From positions 1 through 64,000 of IMG/VR virus record IMGVR_UViG_2848092901_000003: 64,000 nucleotides of DNA; one strand, written 5' to 3'. The notes under the pieces were generated by a model. The model worked only from the letters and a program-made list of their open reading frames with translations, made no database searches and was not told the DNA's origin. Positions 1 through 61,842 of the stretch are shown piece by piece; the stretch's first letter is position 1, and every line of letters begins with the position of its first letter. A program made the translations under genes and the position numbers. Source of the DNA: a virus (Duplodnaviria; Caudoviricetes).

Positions 1-138
1 TAACAATTCTCCTTAAAATTATATACATAAACAATTTCGTCATTTGCTTTATTTCTACCACCTGCTTTTTCATAACACTTACAAGCAGAAATATTACTTT
101 TATTTGTTATTAAATACATCTTATAACATTCAATAGAT

Positions 139-552
139 TTAGCATATCATCATTTCAATATAAATCAATTTCACTTTCCCCAGATACGTCTCTTGAAGAA
201 GCTTCAGCGCATCGATGTTATCGCCCTCAATGTAGATATTCTCTGTATCGATGCTACCGGGTGTTCCGTCTCTGCCGACAGACTTCTCCCTGTCAAGGCG
301 CAAGGTCTTAGCAATAGGTTGGTTGGCAAGTACCACCGATTTCTTTTTATCCGGCCATGTGAACTGGTAGCGTTCCTGCGCTCCCTCGACCACAGCCGCA
401 GAGATTTCCTGGCGCAGCACGTCCGCATCAATTGCACGGACAACCTCACCGTCCTCATTTATTGTTTCGGTCACGGCGTTTGGGAACATCGCGGCAAGTT
501 TCCTGAAATTCTCCTCCGCCAGATCGGGTGTATGCATCTTAAGATTCTCCAT
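139..552 (-). pseudogene. mod: Type III R-M Mod methyltransferase, 5' fragment interrupted at IYID(PPY)
   Basis: Mod N-terminus (ERYQFTWPDKK, NIYIEGDNIDALKLLQETYLGKVKLIYI) followed by EMMIC-stop instead of DPPY; very AT-rich unrelated DNA follows. Confidence 0.88.
143..160 (-). other. Putative att-like junction of a further element inserted in mod
   Basis: Minus strand TATTGA|AATGATGATATG; compositional break at 155; an RBS (AAGGAG) at the window edge points to a gene further left. Confidence 0.6.
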
Positions 553-1171
553 GTTTCAAATCCTCCAGTTCCTGTTTATAGCCACGAAGGCGTGTATAAA
601 GTTCAAATTGTTTCTTCGGCTGTTGCTCCTTCCAGGCAGCAGCCTCAGTCTTTGCTATCAGCTTCTCCAGTTTCAGTATTTGCTCCTGTAGAGCAAGGCG
701 TTCATCCACCGAAAGGGAAGCCGATTTTTCAGCCCGCTCATCATAAAGAGCAATCTGTTCCACAAAAGCCTCCCATATCTCATCGAGGGAGAAGCCCTGA
801 GGTTTCAGGCTTATTTCTGAAGCGTCCATCCACTGTGTCCGATAAAGTTTGCTATGATAAAGGGCAAGCTGACGGCTATCCTCGAACATAAGCAGAAAGA
901 CCAGATTGTGAGGATTCTGCTTTGCAATCGCCTCTATTACTTTGCCATCAAACTCCTGCTTCTTTAAAGTTATCGACAGCAACAGTATTTCCTTTATCTC
1001 CGAATCCGTGTTCAGGTTCAGATTATCTTTTGTGAGGCTGTTCTCTATAACAATCCTTTCCACATCGGACACGAACTTGTCCTTCAGCGCTTTTGTCAGT
1101 GGCAGATGCTTGTAGAACGCCTCTTTCGGCAAACGACGGTGAACCGCCGTTGCAGTAGGAAAATCAATCAT
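539..1171 (-). CDS. DUF4391 family protein
   Basis: RRLPKEAFYKH and EAFVEQIAL motifs, coiled-coil C-terminus (KEQQPKKQFELY); lies between SNF2 and mod. Confidence 0.8.
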   Translation of the reverse strand: MIDFPTATAVHRRLPKEAFYKHLPLTKALKDKFVSDVERIVIENSLTKDNLNLNTDSEIKEILLLSITLKKQEFDGKVIEAIAKQNPHNLVFLLMFEDSRQLALYHSKLYRTQWMDASEISLKPQGFSLDEIWEAFVEQIALYDERAEKSASLSVDERLALQEQILKLEKLIAKTEAAAWKEQQPKKQFELYTRLRGYKQELEDLKHGES

Positions 1172-4100
1172 CTCTAATCACCACCATAAAGCATATCAGT
1201 TCAAAATCATCCAATCCTGAAAAACCACCGGACAGAAATGTGGTCTGACCGCCTCTAAAGAAACTGTCAATGTCTCCCTCATCCTTTGCATCAATGATCG
1301 ACATGATAGCATCCTCCAATAGCTGGGAAACCTTGCTCATGTTTTTGCCATTGTTTGTGGCTTTATTGAATTGCTTGCACAACACTTTGTCCGGCACAGC
1401 CTTTCCACGAGAGAGGTGACGCATCACATCGAGTGTATCCTTCGGCTGTAAATGGTTTGTAATAACCTCGCCGTCCATGCCGACGTACACCATATAGAAC
1501 GGATGCAGCCTATTCTGATTCTGAATATTGATGTGTTCGTTAATATTCTTCAGTACGAAAATCACGCCAGGCTTTTCGCCCTTTACTACGGCATGAATTC
1601 CGAATGGTGTGTGATCGATATTTCCATGCTCCTTCATGTAGGCGAGCAGGTCCATACGGAACTCATTCAAGCCTAAATCCATAATGGAAACACCGCTGGT
1701 CATATCTTCCAAGTCAACCACTTCCTCCTGGAGCTTCTTTAACTGGCTGCGGCGATATTCGAGGTCGCCTTTTTCTTCCTGATTGATAAGGTCATCATCG
1801 CCGGTTGAAGTCATAACGGAAATACGCATCCTTGTCTCAACCCTGGACTTGAGGTTGATGTATTCGTCCAAATCCAAATCAGGCCAAAAGTTCACAAGCT
1901 GAATCACAGCATTTCTGCTGCCGATACGGTCGATACGTCCGAATCGCTGAATAATGCGGACGGGATTCCAATGGATATCATAGTTGATGCAAAAATCGCA
2001 GTCCTGCAAGTTTTGTCCTTCCGAAATGCAGTCAGTGGCAATGAGAATATCAATCTCGGTCTTGTCATTCGGATACAGAACGTCTCTATCCTTGGACATC
2101 GGAGAAAAGCAGGAAAGCACGTGGTTCATATCTGCTTTAAACTTCGGAATTGTAGTCTTGCCATCCACCGAGCCGGTCACGAGCGCAGTATGTAAGCCCA
2201 ACTCATCCCTTGCCATACCGCTGATGTTGTCGAAGAGGTACTCGGCGGTATCGGAGAAGGCGGTAAAAATCAACACTTTCCGATTACCTTCGTTAATCGG
2301 GGCAGCCACCTTTTCACGGATAACACGAATGAGTTCGTTTAGCTTGAAATCGTACTCCGGCGTAATATCTTCCACCATGAGTATCAAAAGCTGGAGATTC
2401 TCAATATCCTCGTCAATATCGCGCTTCCACGAGATGTAATCCATATCCCGCAGGTCAATCTTGACTTTCTTTCCCACGCTGAAGAAATCCGTGTTCTGGT
2501 CATCATAGTCAAAATCATCCGCTACAGCAGAGAGATCGCGCATCTCATCAAGGTCTCCCGTGCCGTCCATCATGAACTGTTCGATAGCCTGCGAAGTGTC
2601 ATACAGATAATCATAAATGCGGCGCACGGTCAGAAGAAACGAATGAACAGAACTTTCCATGCGCTTTAAGAGATTAATGCTCATTAAACGCTGGATACCA
2701 AGTTCACGGCCTTTGCGGAAGTTCTCCGATTCCTTCTCGTCCAGATACTTGTGCAGTTTACTGGCATGAATATAAATAGTCGGCGTATATATCGTCAGCT
2801 GCAGTTTCGACAGCAGCTCGAACACTTCTTTGTAATTTATCGCTCCCGGACGGTCAGTCAATTTCGGTCTTAGCGAGATTGGCTTGTTCCTTGCTGGGAA
2901 TGTACCGATATCTGTAACATCATAATAATTCTGTATATGCTTCCTCGATCGAGCAATCGTTACGCTGTCCAGCACCTCGAAGAAGTCAAAATCAAGCTGT
3001 GAAAGTAACGTGGCAGTTGTCCGTTCACTCTCCGGCAATTTGCACCATGCATTATAGACCTTCTGCGCCTGGCGGAAGATGGTATCGATATCTGACTTTG
3101 TATTCAGCTTCTCATTGAATTCGGATGGATCGCCCTCATAGGCAAGCGCCAGCTGGTTACGTAGGTCGTAAAAACGATTGTTTACCGGTGTCGCCGAAAG
3201 CATCAGCACTTTAGTCTTTACACCTGGTTTTATGACTCGGTTCATCAGCCGCATATAGCGATTTTCCTTTTCTCCGCCACGGCTGTCTGTTCCGTTTCCG
3301 TTACGGAAATTGTGGCTCTCATCAATAACGACCAAATCATAATTTCCCCAATTGATACGGTCAATCGGCAGACCAATCACGGTATTGCCGCTGTCTCTGG
3401 AAAGGTCGGTATGATACAGAATGTCATACCGAAGCCTGTCTGCGGCAAGTGGATTGTTAATGAGGTTTCCGCGATAGGTCATCCAGTTCTCTGACAGCTT
3501 TTTCGGGCAGAGAACGAGGACATTCTTATTGCGACCCTCGTAGTATTTGATAACGGCAAGTGCAGTGAAGGTCTTGCCAAGACCAACGCTGTCCGCAAGA
3601 ATACAACCGCTATATTGTTCCAGTTTATTGATAATAGCAAGGGCGGCATCTTTCTGAAAGTTGAACAGCTTGTTCCAAATAACGCTGTCCTTAAAGCCTG
3701 TAGCCTCATTTGGAAGAACATCATCAGAAATATCCTCCAGAAATTCGCTGAAAATGTTGTAGATAGTCATAAAATAGACTAATTCCGGCGCATTTTCCTG
3801 GTAGACTGTGGAGATCATTTCGATGACTTCTTCCGTAACATCGGTCAGTTTATCTTCGTCACTCCAAACGGAATCGAACATTCGTAAGAATTCTGCACTT
3901 GCTGGATTCTCTATGCGGGTAACCATATTTGTCAGATTGTTCCCGCGTTCACAGCCGAGGTCAACAGTCGTGAAAGTGTTCATCGGCATATAGGTATAGG
4001 CGTCCTCCGCTCCGTCCACGAGCAGGAAGTTATTCATTCCTTCGCGGGTAGTGTTAGTCTTAAAACGTACCTTACGGCGCATCCATTCCGCACATTCCTT

Positions 4101-4403
4101 TGCAACGGCCTTCTGCTTAAGTTCATTACGCAGACGGACCTCAAATTCTGTACCATACAGGCTCTTTTCTCTTTTGAGACGGGGAATATAAAATTCACGA
4201 CGTTCCTTCTGCGTTTTCTCCGCAACAAAAGTCGGCGAAGTGAATATGAATCGCAGTTCCTTGCAATCCTCAAGCTGACTCTTCAATTCCTGGTATGCAT
4301 ATATCGAAAAGCAAGCTGCCGCTATAGAGATACGACTGCCTTGCCGTATAGTTTTTTCAAGATCGTCCTTGACTACTTTAGTGGTGTTATTAAAAATCTC
4401 CAC
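1164..4403 (-). CDS. SNF2-family helicase with N-terminal PLD-like domain
   Basis: DSVGLGKT Walker A, VVIDESH, SATP, EGQNLQ and QRFGRIDRIG motifs; GTG start at 4403 chosen from the GGAGG RBS. Confidence 0.88.
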   Translation of the reverse strand: MEIFNNTTKVVKDDLEKTIRQGSRISIAAACFSIYAYQELKSQLEDCKELRFIFTSPTFVAEKTQKERREFYIPRLKREKSLYGTEFEVRLRNELKQKAVAKECAEWMRRKVRFKTNTTREGMNNFLLVDGAEDAYTYMPMNTFTTVDLGCERGNNLTNMVTRIENPASAEFLRMFDSVWSDEDKLTDVTEEVIEMISTVYQENAPELVYFMTIYNIFSEFLEDISDDVLPNEATGFKDSVIWNKLFNFQKDAALAIINKLEQYSGCILADSVGLGKTFTALAVIKYYEGRNKNVLVLCPKKLSENWMTYRGNLINNPLAADRLRYDILYHTDLSRDSGNTVIGLPIDRINWGNYDLVVIDESHNFRNGNGTDSRGGEKENRYMRLMNRVIKPGVKTKVLMLSATPVNNRFYDLRNQLALAYEGDPSEFNEKLNTKSDIDTIFRQAQKVYNAWCKLPESERTTATLLSQLDFDFFEVLDSVTIARSRKHIQNYYDVTDIGTFPARNKPISLRPKLTDRPGAINYKEVFELLSKLQLTIYTPTIYIHASKLHKYLDEKESENFRKGRELGIQRLMSINLLKRMESSVHSFLLTVRRIYDYLYDTSQAIEQFMMDGTGDLDEMRDLSAVADDFDYDDQNTDFFSVGKKVKIDLRDMDYISWKRDIDEDIENLQLLILMVEDITPEYDFKLNELIRVIREKVAAPINEGNRKVLIFTAFSDTAEYLFDNISGMARDELGLHTALVTGSVDGKTTIPKFKADMNHVLSCFSPMSKDRDVLYPNDKTEIDILIATDCISEGQNLQDCDFCINYDIHWNPVRIIQRFGRIDRIGSRNAVIQLVNFWPDLDLDEYINLKSRVETRMRISVMTSTGDDDLINQEEKGDLEYRRSQLKKLQEEVVDLEDMTSGVSIMDLGLNEFRMDLLAYMKEHGNIDHTPFGIHAVVKGEKPGVIFVLKNINEHINIQNQNRLHPFYMVYVGMDGEVITNHLQPKDTLDVMRHLSRGKAVPDKVLCKQFNKATNNGKNMSKVSQLLEDAIMSIIDAKDEGDIDSFFRGGQTTFLSGGFSGLDDFELICFMVVIRDD

Positions 4404-4427
4404 AAGCGCACCCTCCTCCAACGGCTG

Positions 4428-4649
4428 TTACTCTTCAACCGCCTTATCATCATCAATAAATTCCATGATGTCACCGACATCACATTTGAGTGCGCCGCAT
4501 ATACGCAGCAACACATCCGTATTCACATTTCCGCCTTTTCCAAGTTTGGCAACAGAAGTGGCACTGATACCACTCATCTCCCGTAGAGTCTTTTTATTTA
4601 TTCCACGGTCAATAAGAAGTTTGAAAAGTTTGTTGTAGCTAAAACGCAT
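4428..4649 (-). CDS. XRE/Cro-C1-type HTH regulator
   Basis: SYNKLFKLLIDRGINKKTLREMSGISATSVAKLGKGGNVNTDVLLRICGAL pattern; GGAGG RBS 8 nt upstream. Confidence 0.85.
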   Translation of the reverse strand: MRFSYNKLFKLLIDRGINKKTLREMSGISATSVAKLGKGGNVNTDVLLRICGALKCDVGDIMEFIDDDKAVEE

Positions 4650-4689
4650 CTGCATTACCTCCGTGATTTCTTTCTATATTCTACATTAA

Positions 4690-6516
4690 TTACTTCACAT
4701 CATTTAGGAATCCATATCGTGTTCCCGGAATCAATCCTTTGCCGAAGGTTTCAACGACCGCACCATGCTTCTCATATTCAAGGGAAGGGATATGGTCAAG
4801 GTTCTCGATAATAATAAGCTGACCCTCATCCTGATGATTCATGAAGTAGCGGTAAAGCCCAGCTCTCATGCTATCCGGCATCCTGTCATCCACTCCATCA
4901 TCAAAGCCATGAAGTGGAGTATCAATGATAAAGATGTGAGGATCGAATTTAGCGTTTAGCGCCAGATATTTCCGTAGCATCATAATCATCACTGTATTAA
5001 GGTAAGAACGATAACCTTTACCGTGGCTCGTTCCTTTATCCTCACCATTTACCTCAATATCAAATGTTGTAAAATTAAAGTGCGCCTGAAGTAAACCGGA
5101 ATAATTGCATTCCTTAAGAATGGAATTGGCATATTCAGACATCGTGGTGGCAAAATCATCCCCAAAGTAGTCCTTGGGATGATACTCTAAAGTCTTATCA
5201 TTTTTCTGCTCGTTTTCTAAAGCAGTCAGATCGTTTCCAAAGTCCGTGGCATAGGCTTCAATCAATGCAATCTCACTGGCAATTCGGAGATATGCCTTGT
5301 AAGCATTGACTGTGTTTTGTTGCTCACTTTCCTGGGGACGTAGTTCTGTTTTAATTTTAGATTCGAGAGCATCACGCTGCCGCTTTAACTCGACAAGTTC
5401 GGCCCTGATTTCTTTCTTACGATCCTCGACATCTCTCTCCGTATCCTCAAGGCCGGAAAGTTGGGCCATCGTCCGCTCCATCTCTACTTTGGACGCAGCA
5501 ATATAGGATATCCGCTTACGAGGAGTAATCGTTCCTTCGCAGTATGGACATTTGGTGGCTTGTGGAACTTCCTGATAGGCTTCTTCGCCCTCGACAATGA
5601 GAGAAAGCCGTTGAATATCAGCTTTATACTGCGCAGCAAGTCTGTGGTATCTCGTCAAAAGAACATCGCACTCCGCAGCTCGTTCCTCTGCTTCCAGAAT
5701 GGAAGAGAGGATTTTTTGGCTCTCTGCAAGGGCACAGTCGATTTTTCTCTGTGTTTCCTGTAGGGCAGCAGTCGCTTGAGCTATCTGCGCTTCGACATCT
5801 GCGTCATCAAAAATATGCAAATCTTGTTCAAGCTGCTCCTTGCGTTCCGCAGCATCCCGGATTTTCCGATTGACATACTCGGCTACAGCCTTTCGGCGCG
5901 CTTTCTTTATTTCCTTTTTCTCTTGGGCATCTGTCTCTGTAAAAGTCCTGCCGGTAATTAGATACAAAAGTGCCGACAAAAACAGCGTATTCTCCATGTA
6001 ACGATGTTTTGGTTCTACGATAGAGTCGATATCATCAATCCGGTTTTCATCCAAATAAAATACACGCAGCAAATTGCGCCAGGTGAGTCGCTTCTTTTCA
6101 AACCTTGCGTTCGTTATAATCATGGTTTCTTGTTCAATGCCAATGAGCTTCAGCCATACTTCGTTCAGAGGCGGATTCTTAGCTCCCTTTCGGTAATTGA
6201 CATCATAGGTACCACTGTCTATACCGTCTATGGTGCTGGTCACCTCTACCTGATTCTTTCCCACATTTCTATGAAGAGCGACTTCGCCATCACGGTCATT
6301 TGATTCGACAATCATGGTCACGCCGTCATATTTTGCCGTTTCCTTAAACGGCTTGTCCACGGAGCCACCGAAGATAAAGTCAATACAATTCGCCACGCAG
6401 GTCTTTCCACTGTCAGAGCGTCCCTGTATGATGGTCAGTCCTTTACCGAAGGAAACGCTGGCATCGCCCTTGGTGGCGCTTTTCGCTATAACTTTTTTGA
6501 TGTAAAATCCTGCCAT
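4690..6516 (-). CDS. lmuB: SMC/Rad50-like ABC ATPase (Lamassu LmuB-like / ABC-three-component ATPase)
   Basis: Walker A GRSDSGKT, long coiled coil with CPYC hook, SHGKG signature, IFIIDTP Walker B. Confidence 0.8.
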   Translation of the reverse strand: MAGFYIKKVIAKSATKGDASVSFGKGLTIIQGRSDSGKTCVANCIDFIFGGSVDKPFKETAKYDGVTMIVESNDRDGEVALHRNVGKNQVEVTSTIDGIDSGTYDVNYRKGAKNPPLNEVWLKLIGIEQETMIITNARFEKKRLTWRNLLRVFYLDENRIDDIDSIVEPKHRYMENTLFLSALLYLITGRTFTETDAQEKKEIKKARRKAVAEYVNRKIRDAAERKEQLEQDLHIFDDADVEAQIAQATAALQETQRKIDCALAESQKILSSILEAEERAAECDVLLTRYHRLAAQYKADIQRLSLIVEGEEAYQEVPQATKCPYCEGTITPRKRISYIAASKVEMERTMAQLSGLEDTERDVEDRKKEIRAELVELKRQRDALESKIKTELRPQESEQQNTVNAYKAYLRIASEIALIEAYATDFGNDLTALENEQKNDKTLEYHPKDYFGDDFATTMSEYANSILKECNYSGLLQAHFNFTTFDIEVNGEDKGTSHGKGYRSYLNTVMIMMLRKYLALNAKFDPHIFIIDTPLHGFDDGVDDRMPDSMRAGLYRYFMNHQDEGQLIIIENLDHIPSLEYEKHGAVVETFGKGLIPGTRYGFLNDVK

Positions 6517-6520
6517 TGCG

Positions 6521-6970
6521 TTACCTCCTTAAAGATTTCGTTGACTGTCGACTGATTTCGTTGAACAACTGGACATCGCTATAGTTCCCATACTTCTCAA
6601 TCACAAGCCGCATCAGCTCTTTATACCGCTTGGCATATTCTGATTGGAAACCCTCACTCATGTTTCTTCCACTTTCCGAAACAGAATAAAGGATACCTGT
6701 TTCATCATCCGTGGCTATAACCAGTCCATCAACTACCAGATTCTTTATTGCAGTTTTTGTAAGGCTCCGCCTTGCGGATAGTTCGCTAAATGCAAAGCCA
6801 TTCTCCCCATTTAAAGACTTATCCGCAACACCGAAATCCTCACAGTAAATCGTTATGAAATCATAAGCGGTAATTCTGTCGAGTGTAATTTCGGCATTCG
6901 CCACATCAAGAAGAAGTACCACGTGGAGAGACAGTTCAAAGGGGGTATTGAAAAGTCTGTTATTCATCAA
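6521..6970 (-). CDS. lmuC: ABC-three-component middle component (LmuC-like)
   Basis: FNTPFELSLHV and LDRITAYDFITIY motifs, about 150 aa, directly upstream of the ATPase. Confidence 0.72.
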   Translation of the reverse strand: MMNNRLFNTPFELSLHVVLLLDVANAEITLDRITAYDFITIYCEDFGVADKSLNGENGFAFSELSARRSLTKTAIKNLVVDGLVIATDDETGILYSVSESGRNMSEGFQSEYAKRYKELMRLVIEKYGNYSDVQLFNEISRQSTKSLRR

Positions 6971-7937
6971 TGTTCACCCACGACTCAATCACGCCGTCAT
7001 TCACCAATATGTGGCAAATGCCTTTCTTCTCCAAATTGCCGATCAGATTCCGCATTTGGCTGAGTACGGAACTGTCGAGTGTGGTGCTTGTTATTTTTTC
7101 AAGGACAGCATTCAGCCTTGCGTAACCATCCTCGTAATCCTTCCAATATGTAGTATTGATGCCGTGCCATGCATCATCCTTCAGTCTGCCGAACTCATCC
7201 TCTCCGTCATCGAAGATATCCCGGACAGATCGTTCAATACTTACCGCACTGTAATATGCCATGCGCTGTTCCTTGTAGTTCTCTGCATATCGTTTCGGAA
7301 GGGAAGGAACATCGTCAGCAGTAAAAGTCTCCTTGTTTAATTTCTGAGCATACGCCTCATACAAGGCGCGAATGTAATCCAGTTCATGCTTGCCTACATC
7401 ATCAGGGACAAGCGTCTGATGAATCGTTATGACCTCACCGGATATATGTAATTTATCGCCTCTGCGCTCAATTGTCGCAGGGGCTATATTTTTTAGACTC
7501 CTTCCGGTCTCCATGCGCTGGTAATTCAACGCAGTTACATCATCGGACAGTCCCTCGGAACGGCGTCTAATGATCTGAGCAAGGATATTAGCACAGGCCT
7601 GCCCAACCTCGGAAGGCTCGACATCAAAGCTAAACTCAGCCAGCTTGTCCTTCATGTGGTTCAAGGCATCAAAGGAGTATGTATTTACGAAATCAGCAAA
7701 CTTTGCCTCGTCCAGTCGAGGCGTAAGTGCAGACGCCTTTTTCTGTGAAATTGGAAGTCTGCCACTGTAATATGCCTCCAGTGTAGATTTTCCAAGCTCA
7801 TAGAGGGGATTCGGAGAAGCTTTTTCCAATGCCTCATCATCCAGGATGGCATCCGTCAGAATCTTCACAAATTCTGCGGCGTTCATTTTTGTTTCGTAAT
7901 TATGATGCATGAACTGTACAAGGTCGCAGAACTTCAA
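6960..7937 (-). CDS. ABC-three-component CTD protein (LmuA-like) with N-terminal helical/HTH-like domain
   Basis: C-terminal ELDYIRALYEAY, EQRMAYYSA, DGYARL and KKGICHILVND..W motifs; TTG start at 7937 behind AAAGGAGG. Confidence 0.7.
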   Translation of the reverse strand: MKFCDLVQFMHHNYETKMNAAEFVKILTDAILDDEALEKASPNPLYELGKSTLEAYYSGRLPISQKKASALTPRLDEAKFADFVNTYSFDALNHMKDKLAEFSFDVEPSEVGQACANILAQIIRRRSEGLSDDVTALNYQRMETGRSLKNIAPATIERRGDKLHISGEVITIHQTLVPDDVGKHELDYIRALYEAYAQKLNKETFTADDVPSLPKRYAENYKEQRMAYYSAVSIERSVRDIFDDGEDEFGRLKDDAWHGINTTYWKDYEDGYARLNAVLEKITSTTLDSSVLSQMRNLIGNLEKKGICHILVNDGVIESWVNIDE

Positions 7938-7956
7938 GTTGACACCCTCCTTTCCA

Positions 7957-7994
7957 ATGTAGGCATTTATGTAGGCAGATGTAGGCAAACCTAC
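7957..7994. repeat. Three ATGTAGGCA direct repeats plus GTAGG-N4-CCTAC palindrome; putative operator
   Basis: Copies at 7957, 7969 and 7979; palindrome 7981-7994; just upstream of the RBS of the leftward operon. Confidence 0.75.
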
Positions 7995-8046
7995 GAGTTT
8001 TGGAAGTCCTATTTTCTATAATGAAATCGTGATAAGGCAGAAGGAG

Positions 8047-8061
8047 CGCACAGTCTGTGCG
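8047..8061. promoter_or_regulatory. Perfect palindrome CGCACAG-T-CTGTGCG; putative operator
   Basis: Direct reading; downstream of the leftward -10 in the divergent intergenic region. Confidence 0.5.
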
Positions 8062-8083
8062 AAATCCAAAACGCCTCATATCA

Positions 8084-8113
8084 CATTATACCACGAGCAA
8101 ACGCGATAATCAA
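8084..8113 (-). promoter_or_regulatory. SigA-type promoter for the leftward defence operon
   Basis: TTGATT (8113-8108), 17 bp spacer, extended -10 TGGTATAAT (8093-8085). Confidence 0.75.
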
Positions 8114-8280
8114 TATAAATTTGTGAACGCAAAACTTATTTTCAAAATAAAGCTATTGATTTGCGTTTGCGAGTGGTGCAATCCCGCCTGACACCGCATC
8201 AGCTGATCACTGATGGCTCAACGGTATCCGGCGGCACAACTCAATATCACAGCTGCCTTTTGAGCGGGTTAGCTGCAATC

Positions 8281-8379
8281 CGAAACGGAGAACTCCGTTA
8301 GGACTGCGGTTAGGTCTTGCACCCTTTTTGCGGCAGCGCCCAGAGTCCTCCGTTTCGAGAAATCGACAAATGGAGGACT
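8281..8379 (+). promoter_or_regulatory. Structured 5' leader with mutually exclusive pairings around the RBS
   Basis: AGTCCTCC (8344-8351) pairs with GGAGGACT (8372-8379); 8281-8295 matches the reverse complement of 8343-8357 at 14/15. Confidence 0.6.
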
Positions 8380-8384: not shown

Positions 8385-8897
8385 ATGAAAACCAATGAAA
8401 ATCAGACCACATCAACCATCTACTACCGTCCGCTCAAGCAGTGGATCGAGGTCACCCCGGAACAGAAGCGGGACTGGGAGCGGTTCGTAGGGACTACCCG
8501 CAAGGCGAAGCAGAGAGCCGGAGCCTGCTGCATTCCGTACAAAAAAAGCTACAAATGCGACGGCCTCTGCGATACCTGCGAGTTCCGCTGTATCCCGAAG
8601 GACGCTCCCCAGCATCTTTCCATCGACACTGAGATGGAGAACGCCTACGAAAACGGCGTCTCCCGTACCAGCTTTCTTGCGGACAGCAAACTGACCACGG
8701 AGATCGATATCGACGCCCTGATTCTGAACGGCCTGCTTACGGAGCTTCAGTCATCCGACCCGGAAAGCTACGAGATCCTCATGGCAATTGCGGACGGGCT
8801 TTCCGAACGCGCCGGCGCAGAGCGGCTGCAGATGCCCCGGAACACCTTTGTGTATAAGCGCAATCAGCTGCTGAAGCGGCTCAAGGAAAAATTCTAA
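8385..8897 (+). CDS. Phage sigma-70 region-4-like regulator with Cys-rich motif
   Basis: CCxxxxxxxxCDGLCDTC; C-terminal HTH GLSERAGAERLQMPRNTFVYKRNQLLKRL; first gene of the rightward operon. Confidence 0.7.
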   Translation: MKTNENQTTSTIYYRPLKQWIEVTPEQKRDWERFVGTTRKAKQRAGACCIPYKKSYKCDGLCDTCEFRCIPKDAPQHLSIDTEMENAYENGVSRTSFLADSKLTTEIDIDALILNGLLTELQSSDPESYEILMAIADGLSERAGAERLQMPRNTFVYKRNQLLKRLKEKF

Positions 8898-47068: not shown

Positions 47069-47111
47069 TTGGCTTTCAGAGTGATATATAGTGTCGGAAA
47101 GGAGTGATTTC

Positions 47112-48878
47112 ATGCGGATTGTAAATAAAATCGAAGCGAAAACACCGCAGATGCCGCGCCGCAAAAGGGTCGCTGCCTACGCAAGAGTCTCAATGGAGTC
47201 CGAGCGGCTGCAGCACTCCCTTTCGGCACAGGTCAGCTTTTACAGCAGTTTGATACAGAGCAACCCCGCCTGGGAATATGTGGGCGTATACGCCGACAAC
47301 GGAATAACCGGCACCAAAGCCGAAGCCCGCGAAGAGTTCAATCGGATGATTGCCGACTGCGAAGCCGGAAAAATCGACATTGTTCTGACAAAGAGTATCT
47401 CCCGTTTCGCGCGCAACACCGTTGACCTGTTGAATACAGTGCGCAGGCTCAAGGAACTGGGCGTTTCCGTGCAATTTGAAAAGGAGCGCATCGACTCCCT
47501 CACCGAGGACGGTGAGTTGATGCTGACCCTTTTAGCATCCTTTGCCCAGGAGGAGATACGCAGCCTGTCGGACAACGTCAAATGGGGTACCCGGAAACGA
47601 TTTGAAAAAGGTATTCCCAATGGTCGCTTTCAAATCTACGGGTACCGCTGGGAGGGCGATCATCTGGTTGTCCATGAGGAGGAGGCAAAGATCGTTCGGC
47701 TCATCTACGACAATTACATGAATGGTTTATCAGCGGAAACCACAGAGAAGCAGCTTGCCGAGATGGGTGTGAAATCCTATAAGGGCCAGCACTTCGGCAA
47801 TACCTCTATCAGACAGATCCTCGGCAACATCACTTATACGGGCAACCTTCTGTTCCAGAAGGAATATGTGCAGGACCCCATCAGCAAGAAAAGCAAAATT
47901 AACCGTGGGGAGCTGCCGCAGTATTTCGTGAAGAACACCCACGAAGCCATCATCCCGATGGAGGTCTACCAGGCGGTGCAGACCGAGAAAGCGCGCCGCC
48001 GGGAGCTTGGGGCTTTGGCAAACTGGAGCATCAATACCTCCTGCTTTACCAGCAAAATCAAGTGCGGTCGGTGCGGAAAGAGCTATCAGCGCTCCAACCG
48101 CAAGGGACGAAAAGATCCTGACGCTAACTACACCATCTGGGTCTGCGGGACTCGAAGAAAAACCGGGAATGCCAAGTGCCAAAACAAGGACATCCCAGAA
48201 CAGATACTCAAGGAAGCCTGCGCTGTGGTCATGGGACTGGATACGTTTGATGAGATCATCTTTTCAGAGCAGATCGACCGCATTGAGATCCCTGCTCCGA
48301 ATGAGATGATTTTCTATTTTAAGGATGGCCACATTGTACCGCACCACTGGGAATCCACCATGCGGAAGGACTGCTGGACGGATGAGCGCAGAGCCGCCAA
48401 GGGACGGTATGTGCAGGAGCATCAGCTCGGCCCCAACACTTCCTGCTTTACCAGCCGCATTCGCTGCGACAGCTGCGGCGAGAACTACCGCAGGCAGCGT
48501 TCACGGCACAAAGATGGCAGCTTTGATTCCGTATGGCGATGTGCGTCAGGCGGAAAATGCCAAAGCCCCAGCATCAAGGAAGATGCCCTCAAAAACCTCT
48601 GTGCGGACGCTATGGGTCTGGAGGAATTTAGTGAGACGGTTTTCCGTGAGCAGATTGTCTGCATTCACATCACGGCTCCATATCAGCTTTCCATCCGCTT
48701 CTTTGACGGGCATACCTTCGAGACGGCATGGGAAAACAAGCGGAAGATGCCCCGGCATACAGAGGAGCGAAAACAGCATATGCGAGAAGTAATGATACAG
48801 AGATGGAGGGAAAAACGTGGCGAAAGTAACGACAATACCGGCGACGATAAGCCGATTCACGGCAACGCCGATCAATGA
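47112..48878 (+). CDS. Large serine recombinase 1 with duplicated Zn-ribbon module
   Basis: AAYARVS, KSISRFARN, NITYTGNLLFQK, HEAII; two NTSCFTSxIxC repeats. Confidence 0.93.
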   Translation: MRIVNKIEAKTPQMPRRKRVAAYARVSMESERLQHSLSAQVSFYSSLIQSNPAWEYVGVYADNGITGTKAEAREEFNRMIADCEAGKIDIVLTKSISRFARNTVDLLNTVRRLKELGVSVQFEKERIDSLTEDGELMLTLLASFAQEEIRSLSDNVKWGTRKRFEKGIPNGRFQIYGYRWEGDHLVVHEEEAKIVRLIYDNYMNGLSAETTEKQLAEMGVKSYKGQHFGNTSIRQILGNITYTGNLLFQKEYVQDPISKKSKINRGELPQYFVKNTHEAIIPMEVYQAVQTEKARRRELGALANWSINTSCFTSKIKCGRCGKSYQRSNRKGRKDPDANYTIWVCGTRRKTGNAKCQNKDIPEQILKEACAVVMGLDTFDEIIFSEQIDRIEIPAPNEMIFYFKDGHIVPHHWESTMRKDCWTDERRAAKGRYVQEHQLGPNTSCFTSRIRCDSCGENYRRQRSRHKDGSFDSVWRCASGGKCQSPSIKEDALKNLCADAMGLEEFSETVFREQIVCIHITAPYQLSIRFFDGHTFETAWENKRKMPRHTEERKQHMREVMIQRWREKRGESNDNTGDDKPIHGNADQ

Positions 48879-50388
48879 AAAGAAAAAGCGCCGCACCGCC
48901 GCCTACGCCCGTGTTTCCACGGACAGCGAGGAGCAGCTCACCAGCTACAGCGCCCAGGTGGACTATTACACCAACTATATCAAAAGCCGGGACGATTGGG
49001 AGTTTGTTTCCGTGTATACGGACGAGGGCATAACGGGTACGAATACCAAGCACCGCGAGGGATTCAAACGCATGGTGGCGGATGCACTGGCTGGCAAGAT
49101 AGACCTCATCGTCACCAAATCGGTCAGCCGCTTTGCCCGAAATACGGTAGACAGCCTGACCACGGTGCGCCAGCTCAAGGAAAAAGGCGTGGAGATCTAT
49201 TTTGAGAAAGAAAACATCTGGACCTTGGACAGCAAGGGCGAACTGCTCATCACCATCATGTCCTCACTGGCGCAGGAGGAAAGCCGCAGCATTTCAGAGA
49301 ACTGTACCTGGGGACAGAGAAAACGGTTTGCTGACGGGAAGGTCACCGTGCCATTCAAACGGTTTCTCGGCTATGATCGGGGACCCGATGGCAATCTGGT
49401 TTTGAATAAGGACGAAGCGGTTATCATCCGCCGCATTTACAGTATGTTCCTGCAAGGCATGACGCCGCACGGCATTGCCGCCAGGCTAACCGCTGACGGC
49501 ATTAAATCGCCGGGCGGCAAGGATAAATGGAACGCCGGAGCGGTTCGGAGTATCCTCACTAACGAAAAATATAAGGGTGATGCACTTCTTCAGAAAAGCT
49601 ATACGGTTGATTTCCTCACCAAAAAGAAAAAGGTCAACGAGGGCGAAATTCCGCAGTATTATGTGGAGGGCAACCACGAAGCCATCATTTCCCCAGAGGT
49701 ATTCGAGATGGTTCAGCAGGAAATGGAACGGCGCAGCAAGCGCGGTAGACGAAGCGGTGTCCACCTTTTCTCCGGCAAAATTCGCTGTGGCGAATGCGGA
49801 AGCTGGTACGGCTCCAAAACCTGGCACTCCAATGATAAGTACAAAAAGATCATCTGGCAGTGCAATCACAAATTTGATGGCGACCACAAATGCACCACAC
49901 CACACCTTACAAATGAAGATATCCACCGCTACTTTATTTCGGCAGTCAACCAGCTTCTTGCCCAGAAGGATACCATCATCGCATCCTTGACCGGCGGCTT
50001 GGCCCTTGCCTTTGACCTCACGCCTCTGCAAGCCCAAGAAACTGCACTGATTGAGGAAGTACAGATGCTTGCCGATGCGGTTGAAAAGTGCATCTACGAA
50101 AATGCTCATGTGGCCCTTGACCAGACAGAATACCAGAAACGCTATGACGGACTGGTCCACCGCTACGATGAAGCTAAAGTCAAACTGGGTGCCATCACCG
50201 AGCAGATCGCCGATAAAAAGGCACGGAGAGGCACTATTGAGGAGTTCCTCAAGGTTCTCCGGGAGCAGGACGGACTGGTCACCGATTTTCAAACAAACCT
50301 CTGGTGCGGACTGGTGGATTTTATGACCGTCTACTCCGCAGACGATGTGCGGATCACCTTCAAAAACGGTGCGGAAATAAAGGCATAA
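48817..50388 (+). CDS. Large serine recombinase 2
   Basis: AAYARVSTD, KSVSRFARN, NEKYKGDALLQK, CGECG, WQCNHK. Confidence 0.95.
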   Translation: MAKVTTIPATISRFTATPINEKKKRRTAAYARVSTDSEEQLTSYSAQVDYYTNYIKSRDDWEFVSVYTDEGITGTNTKHREGFKRMVADALAGKIDLIVTKSVSRFARNTVDSLTTVRQLKEKGVEIYFEKENIWTLDSKGELLITIMSSLAQEESRSISENCTWGQRKRFADGKVTVPFKRFLGYDRGPDGNLVLNKDEAVIIRRIYSMFLQGMTPHGIAARLTADGIKSPGGKDKWNAGAVRSILTNEKYKGDALLQKSYTVDFLTKKKKVNEGEIPQYYVEGNHEAIISPEVFEMVQQEMERRSKRGRRSGVHLFSGKIRCGECGSWYGSKTWHSNDKYKKIIWQCNHKFDGDHKCTTPHLTNEDIHRYFISAVNQLLAQKDTIIASLTGGLALAFDLTPLQAQETALIEEVQMLADAVEKCIYENAHVALDQTEYQKRYDGLVHRYDEAKVKLGAITEQIADKKARRGTIEEFLKVLREQDGLVTDFQTNLWCGLVDFMTVYSADDVRITFKNGAEIKA

Positions 50389-50456: not shown

Positions 50457-51413
50457 TTAGTCATCCCAAAACATTCTGCTGGGAAGAAAATAGGTTTCAA
50501 ATTTCCTGGAAAGTCCTAGAATTCCAAATACATCTTTAAGTCTTTTTTTATCGTCTTCACTATAATAATAAATAATCCATTTTGATGTTGGCTTTATTTC
50601 TTCAGCAATTCGCAAGAGATAAGGAGTGTCTACATTCCCAAACGACAAACCTATGGATACTACTTGCTCTATATCTTTTAGACTTGAAAAAAACGATTCA
50701 TTTCTCGATATAATTGCATCCGTGTCTTTATATAATGACGAGCAAAATTTTGCTATCGCGGAGCATATACTTTCTTCCCATTCTACGAACTCTTCACTTG
50801 CACACTGTGCTCTTCGTTTGTAATAATCTATAATAAATTTATTTCCATGCCCCATGATGGGTGGTATTGCAGAGCATGATGGTACTCCTCCATGCAAGTG
50901 AAGAACTGTTTTTACCCCATATACCCGCTCTAGGACATCTGTATAATTAAAATTAATGAAAATATCAGAACAATTTCCTATGAAACTCTTTTTAATGGGG
51001 CACACACCTGATGTATCTATAGACTCTAACCACTCAAGTACATATTTCTGTAAATCTGAAGAAAACCCATACTGTTCCTTCCAGTGAAGATCCAGAGTAT
51101 ATTTTATACCTTCTTCTGGCATTTGCTCTGCAAGGGAACTTGCCATATCGTGCATTCCTTCTACATCTGGGTTACCCATTTCTTCCTCAAATGTTTGCCA
51201 TAAATCTTTTAGCACTGATTTTTTCCATCTTTCTTGTGCCGCTTCAGTGTACCAAGGCTCTGTATCATCTAAAGGCTGAATGTTATACATAGCCTCAAAA
51301 TCCGTTAGAAATGACTCATGATGCGTTTCTAAGAAACTTCTGAACTCAGAATATGGAGTTCTAATACCATGCTGTATGTCGAAACCGTTTCCTACCAAAT
51401 ACAATGTTTTCAT
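50457..51413 (-). CDS. abiH: AbiH-family abortive infection protein
   Basis: LYLVGNGFDIQHGIRTPYSEF N-terminus; FNYT; HLHG; IGLSFGNVDTPY. Confidence 0.8.
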   Translation of the reverse strand: MKTLYLVGNGFDIQHGIRTPYSEFRSFLETHHESFLTDFEAMYNIQPLDDTEPWYTEAAQERWKKSVLKDLWQTFEEEMGNPDVEGMHDMASSLAEQMPEEGIKYTLDLHWKEQYGFSSDLQKYVLEWLESIDTSGVCPIKKSFIGNCSDIFINFNYTDVLERVYGVKTVLHLHGGVPSCSAIPPIMGHGNKFIIDYYKRRAQCASEEFVEWEESICSAIAKFCSSLYKDTDAIISRNESFFSSLKDIEQVVSIGLSFGNVDTPYLLRIAEEIKPTSKWIIYYYSEDDKKRLKDVFGILGLSRKFETYFLPSRMFWDD

Positions 51414-51442
51414 GTTATTCCTCCTATTTGAACGGCAATATA

Positions 51443-51471
51443 AAAATAGCCGGGATGCCCCGGTCTGTCAA
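51443..51471 (-). promoter_or_regulatory. Possible SigA promoter of abiH
   Basis: TTGACA (51471-51466), 17 bp spacer, TATTTT. Confidence 0.45.
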
Positions 51472-51523
51472 CACACCCCAAGAGCAGATTTTACACCGCA
51501 AGGGCACACTTTTTAATTTTACC

Positions 51524-51560
51524 CATACCTTGTATCAAACTCGGTATGATTATTTCTAAA
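51524..51560. other. Prophage right attachment junction
   Basis: Host frame NILE breaks after GA (51556-51555); adjacent CATACC-N13-GGTATG inverted repeat (51524-51548). Confidence 0.7.
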
Positions 51561-53982
51561 ATGTTTCCCTGTTTAAATCCCATATCCGAAAGCGTCTTAT
51601 ATATTCCGTCAATTACGGTTTTCGGTGTATAAAAGCTCGTTAAAGTAGATTCTCTTGCAGCTTCGTATTCTGCATGTGATAAGTTCTCATTTAGAAAAGC
51701 CCTTGCTTCTTTCCACTGACCTTCCTTGCTTTCATCAAAGACTTCGGAAAGTCCGCCCCAGCCTACATACCTTGCTAAAACTTCCTGAGCTGTACTGTCA
51801 AGCTCTCTTTGTCCGCTCTCCACTCTGTTAAGCATGGAAATTGCTTCAAGGTTATTATTTAACCTTTCGCTTGGACTTAACTTTTCAGGGAGCGTTTCTT
51901 CTGTAATTTTAAAGTTATGAGCTTCCGCTTTCCTTATTTGAGTTTCCTCAGTAGTCTGCTCTGGCTGTTTATATGTCAGGTTTTCAAATACCCTCTCAAG
52001 GTCGCTTTCCAGACGATAAGGAATGACATCGAAGCTTGTTATCATCCCGCCAAAATACTCGGTGTTGTCCTTCACCGTTACCGTATTTAGGTTCTTTCTC
52101 ATATCATCAAAGCGTGTTATGGTATGGTTTTTGTCCTTGTATTTAACTTCATCACCGACAATAAAGTTCGGTCTTTCAAGACTTATTTTATTCAGCAAGT
52201 CCTCATTATCTGTAAAGTCTACAATCGGAATTTGATGGTTTCCACTTCTTACCGGATCAAGCCACAAATCATATCTTCCTGTGATTTCATTTTTAGAAAT
52301 TTCTCTGACTTTATATTCTTCATGATTAAAATAGACGGTATCGCCTGCTTTAACTGCAAACTCTTCTAAAAGGCTGTCCTCTTTTTCATTCAGTTCTACT
52401 TCTTCTCTTTCTTTGAGGTAATCAAATAAGGTAGCTTGAACTGTGCCACGCTTTGTAGCTTCTTCTGTTTCTTCAGGTGCTTCAAGCTCTACTTTATCTT
52501 CAAAGCTAAGTTCTCCATTAAAGACAAACTGAAGCTCCTGCTCATCCATTTGTTTTATAAGCTCTATATCTTTAAGTTCTCTAAAGGTCTTTGGAAAATC
52601 CTCTAAAATGAGCCTCTGGGCATTTAATTCTTTCAGTTCCTCAAGGTTAAAATATCCCCATTCAGGCTCTATTCCAAGAACAAGTCCAAAGGCATCACCG
52701 CTTTCCCTGTCATACTCCGTCATATACCAAGTCCAATTTGAACGAAAAGGAATAATATATGCTGCATGAACCTGCTTATCCGCTAAATCTACATCCTCCT
52801 GTGCGTAAATCTCTGGCACTCTTTCAAGAATTTCATCAGGCATTAGATTTCCAGGATCATTTTTAGAATAATATTGCGGTTCTTTTACTTCTTCTATCTC
52901 TGCCGTACTTTCTGTTTCCTTTTCCTCAAAATAAAGTTTTTTAGAAAGCAGCTCATCAATATGCTTTGCAACACTTGTCCAAGTAAGGAACACATCATTA
53001 CAATCATTCTTCTGTAATTTAAAACCCTTTGCATCGTGCCATTCATCACTTCCCATTGCACCTGACACAACGTGAGAATGTCCTCCGATTCCATATTCAT
53101 CTTTTAGGAAATTGGCTTTTTCCTGCAAAGTATGATTTTCTTTAAAAAACTTGGTGATTCGTTCTTTTCCTCTATCAACGCCGCTTCCTCTTGAAAGGCT
53201 TTCAAGGACTTCATCTTCTGTAATAAAGAGCTTTACCTTCGGAAGTTCTGTCAGATTGGTACTATATTCCTTTCGTTGCAGCTCAAGTTCTTGCAACTTC
53301 TGATAAAGACTATCTACCTTGTGATAATGATACCTTAATACATTTCTGCTTTCTTTGTATCCTTCTAAAAACCTGCTATATTCTTTGATTGTTTCTTTCA
53401 GATATTCAGGATTTTTTAATGCTTCAGATAATCTTTTCGTTTCTTGCGGAAAGCCACCACCTCTTTCAAAAGAGTTGAAATATCCTTGCTCTATTCCTTC
53501 TTCGCTTAAATCGTGCGTTAGATACCATAAGGATTCTGAAATTCTATCCCTTTCATAGTCCTGTGCCTCTAAAAGTTCTACATTTGTAGCAAACTCACCT
53601 CTGTCAAGAAGTTCATTTATCCTACTTGCTGCATCACTCCAACTTAAAATTTGTGTATTATCCTCTCTTGCCGATGTTCCATAAGCTAAATGAATACCTT
53701 TATCCGAATACCAGGAAGATACTTCTCTTTCATCAATGTAAAATCCGTTTCCGCCTTTAAAGGTATCTTTGAGGTATTCTCCCAATTCTTCTATGCTCTT
53801 GCCTTTTGAAAACTCAGCAATAACAGGAAGCCTACCGCCATCATGATTTCCTCCGTTAATAAGGACGGTATCTATATCCTTCTCAGTTAGCGGAATAGTA
53901 AGGCTTATCTGTCCATAAGAATTTTCGGGTAAAGAAAAAGAAGCCTTTTCAGCTTCTATTATCCCTTTATCCGTATTGTCTT

Positions 53983-55189: not shown

Positions 55190-55226
55190 AACAAAAAAGG
55201 CGGTTAGATTTTACTCTAATCACCTT
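55190..55226 (-). terminator. Intrinsic terminator downstream of the KilA-N gene
   Basis: AAGGTGATTAGA-N6-TCTAACCGCCTT followed by a T-run on the minus strand. Confidence 0.7.
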
Positions 55227-55250
55227 CGCTATATACCAAATATTATTACT

Positions 55251-56054: not shown

Positions 56055-56138
56055 ATAATCACCTCTCAATCATTAAATTGATTACTTTGCATTATAGCAT
56101 TTTTAGAGCATTTTTTCCACGCTGAAATTAGTGCTGTC

Positions 56139-61839: not shown

Positions 61840-61842
61840 AGG

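What the first reader, a model, noticed from the sequence alone, without database searches (positions are those of the whole stretch)
4690..7937. Lamassu-like operon whose LmuA has an HTH-like head, no visible effector, and sits where the prophage repressor should be
Seen: LmuA-like, LmuC-like and LmuB-like genes are the first genes transcribed divergently from the lytic operon. The N-terminal 130 aa (NPLYELGKSTLEAYYSGRLPISQKKA) look helical/HTH-like with no recognisable nuclease, protease or NADase motif, and no CI with a peptidase domain is seen in the window. Established: Lamassu SMC-like ATPases sense DNA and activate the LmuA effector. Inference: the sensor may be wired to a DNA-binding domain as a RecA-independent lysis-lysogeny or superinfection switch, or it uses an unknown effector.
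Basis: inference. Interest (0 to 1): 0.8.

Follow-up and report, generated by a model that had tools for sequence, protein, structure and literature searches.

The report
Prophage-borne Lamassu cassette, enzyme-less head
A gut prophage carries a catalogued Lamassu anti-phage system as swappable cargo next to its early genes; its output protein has a small non-enzymatic helical head of unknown function instead of a toxic enzyme, and nothing shows that it is the phage's lysogeny switch.

Summary
On the minus strand, lmuA (6960-7937), lmuC (6521-6970) and lmuB (4690-6516) form a short type II Lamassu (ABC-3C) operon. It is the first unit transcribed away from the phage early operon. No S24-peptidase repressor exists anywhere in the 82-kb record.

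LmuA's C-terminal domain matches solved LmuA structures. Its first 135 residues match no known enzyme, fold or HTH family, and the domain is acidic (pI 4.4-5.5). The "HTH-like head" is therefore not supported.

The 75-aa HTH_26 gene (4428-4655) is a conserved fourth gene. Together with the promoter region these genes form a 3.7-kb cassette (4428-8183).

The closest phage, NatCom_11578, is about 95% identical from 8184 to 50148. It has no Lamassu and carries other genes in this slot. The cassette is thus exchangeable cargo, not core switch machinery.

Two points remain open:
- The head also sits on STAND-TPR (NLR-like), HamA, TIR and Mrr proteins.
- It is always preceded by three or four lineage-specific direct repeats at 10-12-nt spacing.

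This scan reached similar conclusions about this family on other DNA several times before. A 2025 paper notes a short-Lamassu clade that seemingly lost its effector domain.

The parts
6960..7937 (-). lmuA (325 aa): helical head plus beta-hairpin linker plus CTD6
   Evidence: PADLOC PDLC03857 4.1e-105 over the full length and Pfam CTD6 4.9e-38. AlphaFold2 model pLDDT 84.5.
7533..7937 (-). Head domain of LmuA, residues 1-135: non-enzymatic, acidic, all-helical, no known fold
   Evidence: Folded alone: pLDDT 87.4, pTM 0.83. Foldseek PDB best E 0.6. VIA best Z 5.2. pI 4.9. Only N43, P44, G59 and A68 are near-invariant. A profile of the domain finds 706 clusters with it at the N-terminus.
6960..7391 (-). 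CTD6 of LmuA, residues 183-325: docking and oligomerisation domain
   Evidence: VIA-align Z 11.1 (rmsd 3.3, 130 aligned) to 9nxx_A and Z 10.0 (rmsd 2.5, 114 aligned) to 9hqx_A, both over the LmuA C-terminal domain.
6521..6970 (-). lmuC (149 aa), middle component MC2; overlaps the lmuA stop by 11 nt
   Evidence: Pfam MC2 1.8e-41; PADLOC LmuC 2.3e-47.
4690..6516 (-). lmuB (608 aa), short SMC/Rad50-like ATPase
   Evidence: PADLOC LmuB 6.8e-221 over the full length. Walker A GRSDSGKT, CPYC at 323, IFIIDT Walker B.
4428..4655 (-). Conserved fourth gene: 75-aa XRE-type HTH_26 (VanU/YozG-like) regulator
   Evidence: Pfam HTH_26 1.1e-17. NCBIfam VanU 2e-22, below the curated cut-off. Directly follows lmuB in 39 of 41 main-clade loci that reach that far. 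Mean column identity 63%.
7957..7987 (.). Three exact direct repeats ATGTAGGCA (starts 7957, 7969, 7979), read TGCCTACAT on the lmuA strand, 10-25 nt before the RBS
   Evidence: The same 10/12-nt array with lineage-specific sequence precedes every head gene examined.
8085..8113 (-). Promoter-like site for the cassette: TTGATT, 17 nt, TGGTATAAT (extended -10)
   Evidence: Consensus scan, 10 of 12 matches with TG. The -10 is invariant in 11 cassettes. TGCTATAAT sits at the same place in L009 and L028.
8184..8340 (+). DUF2800 RNA motif. Its 5' end is the left edge of the conserved phage backbone, so it marks the right edge of the cassette
   Evidence: Rfam RF02960, 150.9 bits. Homology to NatCom_11578 begins exactly at 8184.
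8385..8897 (+). First early gene: 170-aa Cys-rich protein with a sigma-70 region-4-like C-terminus, a frequent divergent partner of head genes
   Evidence: phrog_13787 2.4e-21. Homologues carry Sigma70_r4/ECF hits. It is the divergent neighbour in 40 of 62 loci.

Best explanation
The region 4428-8183 is a self-contained four-gene cassette: promoter and repeat array, then lmuA, lmuC, lmuB and an HTH_26 gene. It belongs to the short, type II Lamassu (ABC-3C) anti-phage family. It is carried as exchangeable cargo in the variable left arm of a Ca. Heliusvirales-type temperate phage, directly beside the early control region.

Shown here:
- the identity of the parts;
- the fold of the LmuA C-terminal domain;
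- the cassette boundaries;
- its recurrence next to related phages in many hosts;
- its absence from a near-identical phage.

Inferred from solved Lamassu systems: in the lysogen, LmuB2-LmuC holds LmuA. DNA ends or replication intermediates of an incoming element release LmuA, which then oligomerises through CTD6.

Inferred only: the output is the 135-aa non-enzymatic head. It probably acts by binding something once clustered, either a protein partner or nucleic acid. The small HTH_26 protein probably sets the expression level of the cassette or of the defence genes behind it. The net effect would be protection of the lysogen against superinfection. The cassette is not the phage's own lysis-lysogeny decision.
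For: - Family assignment comes from full-length PADLOC and Pfam hits. The CTD matches solved LmuA at Z 11.1 and 10.0.
- The LmuB motifs are intact and the genes are tightly coupled.
- Nucleotide homology between cassettes breaks at 4428-4460 and at about 8176-8184, while the genes downstream vary: BREX, type I R-M, Dcm/Eco29kI, or Snf2.
- NatCom_11578 is 95.3% and 94.4% identical over 8184-50148. It has no Lamassu and carries an XRE-113, an AAA plus subtilase pair, and an HTH_26 plus UvrD-nuclease R-M set instead.
- NatCom_6392, deposited as a complete phage genome, carries lmuA-C-B plus HTH_26 in its left arm.
- The flank homologous to other contigs ends at 146/147, so the cassette lies inside inserted DNA.
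- The head sits at the N-terminus of CTD6 and CTD11 proteins and of STAND-TPR proteins, which is the position an effector usually occupies.
- Published work says LmuA activation by release and CTD-mediated tetramerisation may be general, and describes a short-Lamassu clade that seemingly lost its effector (PMC12663957).
Against: - No toxic or any other activity can be assigned to the head, and it has no conserved catalytic-type residue.
- The head also precedes proteins that already carry an effector (HamA, TIR, Mrr). That fits a regulatory or adaptor role better than a weapon.
- Every head gene is preceded by a co-varying direct-repeat array and is usually divergent from a sigma-region-4-like early gene. 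That looks like a genetic switch.
- In this prophage no other XRE-type repressor candidate was found.
- Anti-phage activity of this subtype was not found tested in the papers read.
Confidence: 0.6

Rival explanations
1. Switch-wiring. The head is a regulatory module that binds the repeat array, or the sigma-region-4-like early protein. Oligomerisation of the attached sensor (Lamassu, STAND, HamA and others) would then change transcription at the divergent promoters. The result would be prophage induction or silencing, or shut-off of the defence operon during the phage's own lytic growth.
For: - The head gene is always the first gene divergent from the early operon, on Lamassu, STAND and HamA versions alike.
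- Three or four direct repeats at one-helical-turn spacing precede every head gene, and their sequence changes with lineage. They are present even where HTH_26 or the sigma-like gene is absent.
- A conserved extended -10 and an invariant opposite-strand TATAAT box suggest face-to-face promoters.
- The slot differs between two phages that are 95% identical, as in an immunity-region swap.
- One head protein carries a Peptidase_M78 (ImmA/IrrE-type) domain.
Against: - The head is acidic (pI 4.4-5.5).
- It has no HTH by Pfam or NCBIfam, by hhalign (0.2%), or among the fold matches.
- The near-identical phage manages without it.
- Cassettes occur with no phage-gene homologue detected within the 10 kb upstream, for example L002, L020 and L021.
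Confidence: 0.18
2. The 75-aa HTH_26 protein is the prophage's immunity repressor, or the main regulator of the slot. Lamassu simply rides in its lysogenically expressed operon as a moron.
For: - It is the only XRE-type HTH between 1 and 64 kb.
- It is the most conserved cassette gene: 55-96% identity where LmuA falls to 37-41%.
- A 52% homologue is present in the left arm of Lamassu-less NatCom_11578.
- It gives weak PHROG hits to transcriptional repressors.
- TTGCG/CGCAA motifs in the intergenic region stay conserved between distant cassettes while the repeat array changes.
Against: - It lies 3.3 kb from the early promoter, at the far end of the operon.
- tblastn at E 1e-3 finds it in only 46 phage records, so many related phages lack it.
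- It is also linked to other defence ATPases and methyltransferases, as a controller of cargo genes would be.
- It is absent from the Bacilli/Mollicutes-type cassettes and from the STAND version, which keep the array.
Confidence: 0.25
3. Degenerate system: LmuA has lost its effector and the operon is inactive. Alternatively it acts only through LmuB/LmuC binding DNA.
For: - No effector domain is detectable.
- The literature describes a clade that 'seemingly lost the effector domain' (PMC12663957).
- Variants exist with a 233-243-aa LmuA lacking the head.
Against: - All four genes are intact.
- The head is conserved from 98% down to 20% identity in 706 clusters and on several protein types.
- In short-LmuA variants the head is kept on a separate upstream gene.
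- That pattern indicates purifying selection on a working domain.
Confidence: 0.07

Closest known systems
Short type II Lamassu / DdmABC (Vibrio cholerae Vc-Cap4, PDB 9nxx and 9ny5; Salmonella enterica LmuACB, PDB 9hqx)
   Same: Gene order A-C-B. A roughly 600-aa LmuB with Walker A and a single CxxC hook. A small LmuC. An LmuA C-terminal domain of the same fold (Z 10-11).
   Different: The N-terminal Cap4 nuclease is replaced by a 135-aa non-enzymatic helical head. The CTD is of the CTD6 type and LmuC of the MC2 type. A conserved fourth gene (HTH_26) and a direct-repeat array are present, neither of which I found described.
Lamassu-Mrr / ABC-3C 'REase-CTD6 + MC2' systems (Millman et al. 2022 preprint 10.1101/2022.05.11.491447; Pfam CTD6 and MC2)
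   Same: The same CTD6 and MC2 families. The second-best PADLOC LmuA model (PDLC03852) matches only the CTD half (residues 192-339).
   Different: There is no Mrr or other nuclease domain before CTD6 here.
'Clade O' short Lamassu that seemingly lost the LmuA effector domain (PMC12663957)
   Same: Short Lamassu with non-truncated LmuB and LmuC and no recognisable effector on LmuA.
   Different: Membership could not be checked, because the clade's sequences were not at hand. Here the N-terminus is not missing: it is a conserved, portable domain.
Defence hotspots of temperate phages (P2/P4 hotspots; cargo arm of the Streptococcus phi1207.3 / phi-m46.1 group)
   Same: A variable slot at one end of the prophage that holds interchangeable defence or resistance cargo. 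Phi1207.3-type streptococcal phages share the DUF2800 replication module.
   Different: The slot here abuts the early promoter and DUF2800 RNA. Its first gene repeatedly begins with the same head domain.
CI/Cro-type immunity regions (lambda, P2, 186)
   Same: Divergent or face-to-face promoter geometry. Repeated operator-like sites. Module swap between otherwise near-identical phages.
   Different: No HTH or S24 domain in the first gene. The candidate repressor is the last gene of the operon. Nothing has been shown experimentally.

Membership tests
Lamassu (short, type II; ABC-3C) | LmuB: roughly 600-aa SMC/Rad50-like ATPase with Walker A/B and a coiled coil | tested here: met
   PADLOC PDLC03867 6.8e-221, residues 1-607 against profile 1-603/605. 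GRSDSGKT, IFIIDT and CPYC motifs.
Lamassu (short, type II; ABC-3C) | LmuC middle component encoded between lmuA and lmuB | tested here: met
   Pfam MC2 1.8e-41; PADLOC LmuC 2.3e-47. It overlaps the end of lmuA by 11 nt.
Lamassu (short, type II; ABC-3C) | LmuA C-terminal domain of the ABC-3C CTD type that docks on LmuB/C and oligomerises | tested here: met
   Pfam CTD6 4.9e-38. VIA Z 11.1 (rmsd 3.3, 130 aligned) to 9nxx_A and Z 10.0 (rmsd 2.5, 114 aligned) to 9hqx_A. Docking and oligomerisation themselves are inferred.
Lamassu (short, type II; ABC-3C) | LmuA N-terminal domain is a recognised toxic effector (Cap4, Mrr, PDDEXK, HNH, Sir2, lipase, protease, and so on) | tested here: inconclusive
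   No Pfam, NCBIfam or PDB-sequence hit. Fold searches give nothing above noise. No conserved catalytic-type residue. A cryptic effector cannot be excluded.
Lamassu (short, type II; ABC-3C) | Protects against phage or plasmid, dependent on the LmuB ATPase | not testable with these tools
   Needs plaque or transformation assays.
CI-type prophage repressor (XRE HTH plus S24 peptidase) | HTH DNA-binding domain in the first divergent gene | tested here: inconclusive
   No HTH family hit on LmuA. hhalign against the HTH_26 profile gives 0.2% probability. No HTH chain is listed by Foldseek or VIA. pI 4.9.
CI-type prophage repressor (XRE HTH plus S24 peptidase) | LexA/CI-like S24 autopeptidase domain | tested here: not met
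   A PF00717 search of the whole 82-kb record found no match at E 0.1. The control genomes matched.
CI-type prophage repressor (XRE HTH plus S24 peptidase) | Conserved together with the early control region in closely related phages | tested here: not met
   NatCom_11578 is about 95% identical from 8184 onward and has no LmuA, LmuC or LmuB.

The most novel reading that the evidence does not exclude
The 135-aa head is a new kind of output module. It could be a DNA- or sigma-factor-binding domain that becomes active only when the immune sensor it is fused to oligomerises (Lamassu, NLR-like STAND, HamA, TIR). It would act on the lineage-specific repeat array between face-to-face promoters. In that way infection sensing would be wired directly into a temperate element's transcription switch, giving induction, silencing or self-protection.
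Probability: 0.15. Interest if true: 0.85.

Novelty: new variant of a known kind. Interest (0 to 1): 0.5.

Why it matters
Lamassu is found in about 15% of prokaryotic genomes (PMC12663957), and every mechanism solved so far ends in an enzyme, a nuclease. This subtype, common in gut Clostridia prophages, ends in a small non-enzymatic domain that also heads NLR-like, Hachiman-type and TIR proteins.

Finding what that head binds would show how such systems stop a phage without an enzyme. It might instead show that some prophages couple defence sensors to their own gene regulation.

It also marks a well-defined defence slot in Ca. Heliusvirales, a very widespread gut phage lineage.

Tried and rejected
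- **HTH reading of the head: rejected as unsupported.** No family hit, hhalign 0.2% against HTH_26, and an acidic pI.
- **Fold searches of the head.** Foldseek PDB best E 0.6. VIA-align wide best Z 5.2 to a transporter, then acyl-carrier-like bundles at Z about 3, which is all within noise. BFVD gives only three uncharacterised Siphoviridae proteins with the same domain. The ESM Atlas gives unnamed clusters.
- **Whole-model Foldseek** gave only weak LmuA rows.
- **Empty-site search** joining the left flank to the right flank found no hit in metagenome contigs. The left flank alone showed that 1-146 is the 3' part of a GNAT-like gene, intact in L081 and L082. The other half of that gene is not in the 82-kb record, so attL and attR could not be defined.
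- **5' UTR of lmuA as a structured RNA:** z-score -1.5, not remarkable.
- **Repeat motif ATGTAGGCA elsewhere** in the window or in NatCom_11578: no enrichment.
- **A strict 24-nt array pattern** in viral contigs recovered only contigs already seen.
- **The ABC-3C source paper** (Krishnan et al. 2020) is not held, so its description of CTD6 partners was not checked.
- **Rightward early promoter:** no convincing -35 was found by eye or by the scan, so the face-to-face promoter geometry remains a suggestion.
Full report
**What is there.** The minus strand between 4428 and 7937 holds four tightly packed genes.
- lmuA (6960-7937, TTG start eight bases after a GGAGG) matches PADLOC's LmuA model PDLC03857 over its whole length (4.1e-105). 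It carries Pfam CTD6 in its C-terminal half.
- lmuC (6521-6970) is Pfam MC2 (1.8e-41).
- lmuB (4690-6516) matches PADLOC LmuB PDLC03867 at 6.8e-221. It has Walker A GRSDSGKT, a Walker B-like IFIIDT and one CPYC hook.
- A 75-aa HTH_26 protein (4428-4655) follows.

Downstream lie an HKD+Snf2 helicase, a DUF4391 protein and a truncated type III methylase. To the right, on the plus strand, come the Rfam DUF2800 RNA (8184-8340, 150.9 bits), a 170-aa Cys-rich protein with a sigma-region-4-like tail (8385-8897), then DUF2800 nuclease, Enc34-type SSB, PolA, VapE primase and SNF2. Two large serine recombinases sit at 47091-50388.

**The LmuA protein.** An AlphaFold2 model built on 33 homologues (pLDDT 84.5) has three parts: an all-helical head (1-127), two beta-hairpins (156-171) and a helical C-terminal domain.
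- The C-terminal part superposes on solved LmuA C-terminal domains: 9nxx_A at Z 11.1 (rmsd 3.3, 130 residues) and 9hqx_A at Z 10.0 (rmsd 2.5, 114 residues).
- The head, folded alone on 26 homologues (pLDDT 87.4, pTM 0.83), has no significant match. Foldseek's best E in PDB is 0.6. VIA-align's best Z is 5.2, far below the noise level for helical models.
- BFVD returns only three uncharacterised Siphoviridae proteins that carry the same domain.
- Pfam, NCBIfam and PDB sequence searches find nothing.
- A profile comparison with the cassette's own HTH_26 family gives 0.2% probability.
- The domain is acidic in all 26 homologues (pI 4.4-5.5).
- The only near-invariant residues are N43, P44, G59 and A68, which are of structural rather than catalytic type.

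I conclude that the head is a real, conserved, non-enzymatic domain. The 'HTH-like' reading is not supported, although DNA binding cannot be excluded by computation.

**A four-gene cassette.** I collected 62 distinct related loci from genomes, viral contigs and metagenomes.
- An HTH_26 ORF follows lmuB directly in 39 of the 41 main-clade loci that extend far enough.
- It is the most conserved gene of the set, with 63% mean column identity. In L009, for example, it is 61% identical where LmuA is 41%, LmuC 47% and LmuB 53%.
- It is absent from a distant Bacilli/Mollicutes-type clade (L039-L047).
- Nucleotide homology between cassettes stops within 4428-4460 on one side and near 8176-8184 on the other. 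The genes behind the HTH differ from locus to locus: BREX, type I R-M, Dcm/Eco29kI, or Snf2.

**Cargo, not core.** Window 8184-50148 is collinear with Acutalibacteraceae phage NatCom_11578 (PV036426, Ca. Heliusvirales) at 95.3% and 94.4% identity.
- Homology starts exactly at the first base of the DUF2800 RNA.
- That phage has no LmuA, LmuC or LmuB.
- Its left arm instead encodes a 112-aa unknown protein, a 113-aa XRE protein, an AAA ATPase with a subtilase, and an HTH_26 homologue (52% identity) heading a UvrD-nuclease, methylase and Res set.
- Another record of that group, NatCom_6392, does carry lmuA-C-B plus HTH_26 in its left arm.
- Of the 41 main-clade loci with at least 3 kb upstream, 32 have homologues of this phage's early genes on the divergent strand.
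- Hosts range from Ruminococcus and Lachnospiraceae to Bifidobacterium.
- In the window, the flank shared with other contigs ends at 146/147, inside a GNAT-like gene. The right flank is an integrative conjugative element.

The Lamassu cassette therefore lies inside the inserted element, in a slot whose content is exchanged between near-identical phages. This argues against Lamassu being the phage's lysis-lysogeny machinery. It fits the known habit of temperate phages of carrying defence systems in hotspots (noted for Lamassu in 10.1101/2022.05.11.491447).

**What remains odd.** A profile of the head finds 706 clusters at 50% identity, always with the domain at residues 1 to about 140. I scanned 109 representatives of at least 190 aa:

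| C-terminal content | Representatives |
|---|---|
| CTD6 | 24 |
| CTD11 | 19 |
| NB-ARC/STAND with TPR | 4 |
| HamA | 1 |
| TIR plus VWA | 1 |
| Mrr plus Peptidase_M78 | 1 |
| no Pfam family in the rest of the protein | remainder |

- In variants with a short LmuA, the head sits on a separate upstream gene.
- Every head gene examined is preceded, 10-25 nt before its RBS, by three or four direct repeats with 10/12-nt spacing. The repeat sequence is lineage-specific: TGCCTACAT here (7957-7987), GCATACAT, GGACA, CGGTC or TCGGA elsewhere.
- The array is present where HTH_26 is absent (STAND version, Bacilli clade). It is also present where the sigma-like neighbour is absent.
- The sigma-region-4-like gene is the divergent neighbour in 40 of 62 loci (Pfam hits).
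- An extended -10 (TGGTATAAT, 8085-8093) for the cassette is conserved even in distant cassettes.
- An invariant TTTTCTATAAT lies on the other strand about 30 nt from the array.

This looks like a regulatory unit. It keeps the switch-wiring idea alive at perhaps 15-20%, but I have no evidence on what binds the array.

**Comparison with the literature.** Solved Lamassu systems release LmuA, which tetramerises through its CTD to activate a Cap4 nuclease. The authors suggest this may be general for other effectors (PMC12663957; 10.1101/2025.06.23.660979). The same PNAS paper reports a short-Lamassu clade ('Clade O', more than 100 sequences) that 'seemingly lost the effector domain'. I could not check whether this family is that clade. 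I found no description of the head as a portable domain, of the repeat array, or of the HTH_26 fourth gene. The Ca. Heliusvirales paper does not mention repressors, lysogeny or Lamassu.

**Earlier notes of this scan.** Several notes on other DNA reached the same picture: a prophage Lamassu with a non-enzymatic head, the head on NLR-like proteins, a repeat array, and an XRE gene closing the operon. I re-derived these points here independently.

**Verdict.** The object is a catalogued kind of system in an uncharacterised variant. Interest is moderate.

Noticed in passing
window 8184-8340: The Rfam DUF2800 RNA motif (150.9 bits) starts exactly where homology to the near-identical phage NatCom_11578 begins. 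Its 5' end is therefore the boundary between the conserved backbone and the variable left arm.
   Followed up: partly
window 1-552: Bases 1-146 are the 3' part of a GNAT-like gene that is intact in two metagenome contigs (L081 9777-10214, and L082). Homology ends at 146/147. The type III Mod gene (139-552) is cut off there after about 137 codons. The other half of the GNAT gene is not in the 82-kb record, so the prophage's left end may be deleted or rearranged.
   Followed up: partly
window 539-4421: An HKD+Snf2 helicase (PADLOC candidate C3a139, 1.6e-125) with DUF4391 lies behind the HTH_26 gene. The same pair follows a 34%-identical Lamassu cassette in L066 (68.8% nucleotide identity over window 857-5187).
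   Followed up: no
window 50457-64000: The right flank has 37% GC and encodes AbiH, a KilA-N protein, topoisomerase III, a CD1107-like protein, a CHAP/NlpC peptidase and a VirB4/TraG-like ATPase. The prophage therefore sits beside or inside an integrative conjugative element, and the IMG/VR 'provirus' record is over-extended.
   Followed up: partly
window 47091-50388: There are two tandem large serine recombinases. Homology to NatCom_11578 ends at about 50148, inside the C-terminal part of the second one, which suggests a different integration specificity.
   Followed up: no
L069:9120-10555 and L034:230-1665: In variants with a 233-243-aa LmuA (a short N-terminus plus CTD6), the head domain is on a separate 235-aa protein encoded just upstream. 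This is a split form of LmuA.
   Followed up: partly
L012-L017, L023-L024: LmuA at 88-98% amino-acid identity occurs in assemblies labelled Ruminococcus, Lachnospiraceae, Christensenellales, Bacteroidaceae, Ructibacterium and Oscillospiraceae. At 67% identity it occurs in two Bifidobacterium isolates. This suggests wide horizontal spread, or binning noise for some metagenome-assembled genomes.
   Followed up: no
L002-L008, L036: A tRNA/rRNA uracil-5-methyltransferase (RumA-like) gene flanks several of these elements or their remnants. This recalls the 'rum' integration locus named in Streptococcus suis phages of the same replication-module family.
   Followed up: no
window 8385-8897: The first early protein has a Cys-rich centre (CC..C..C..C..C) and a sigma-70 region-4-like C-terminus. 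It has no Pfam hit itself, but homologues hit Sigma70_r4/ECF. It is only 77.5% identical to its NatCom_11578 counterpart, although the surrounding DNA is about 94% identical.
   Followed up: no
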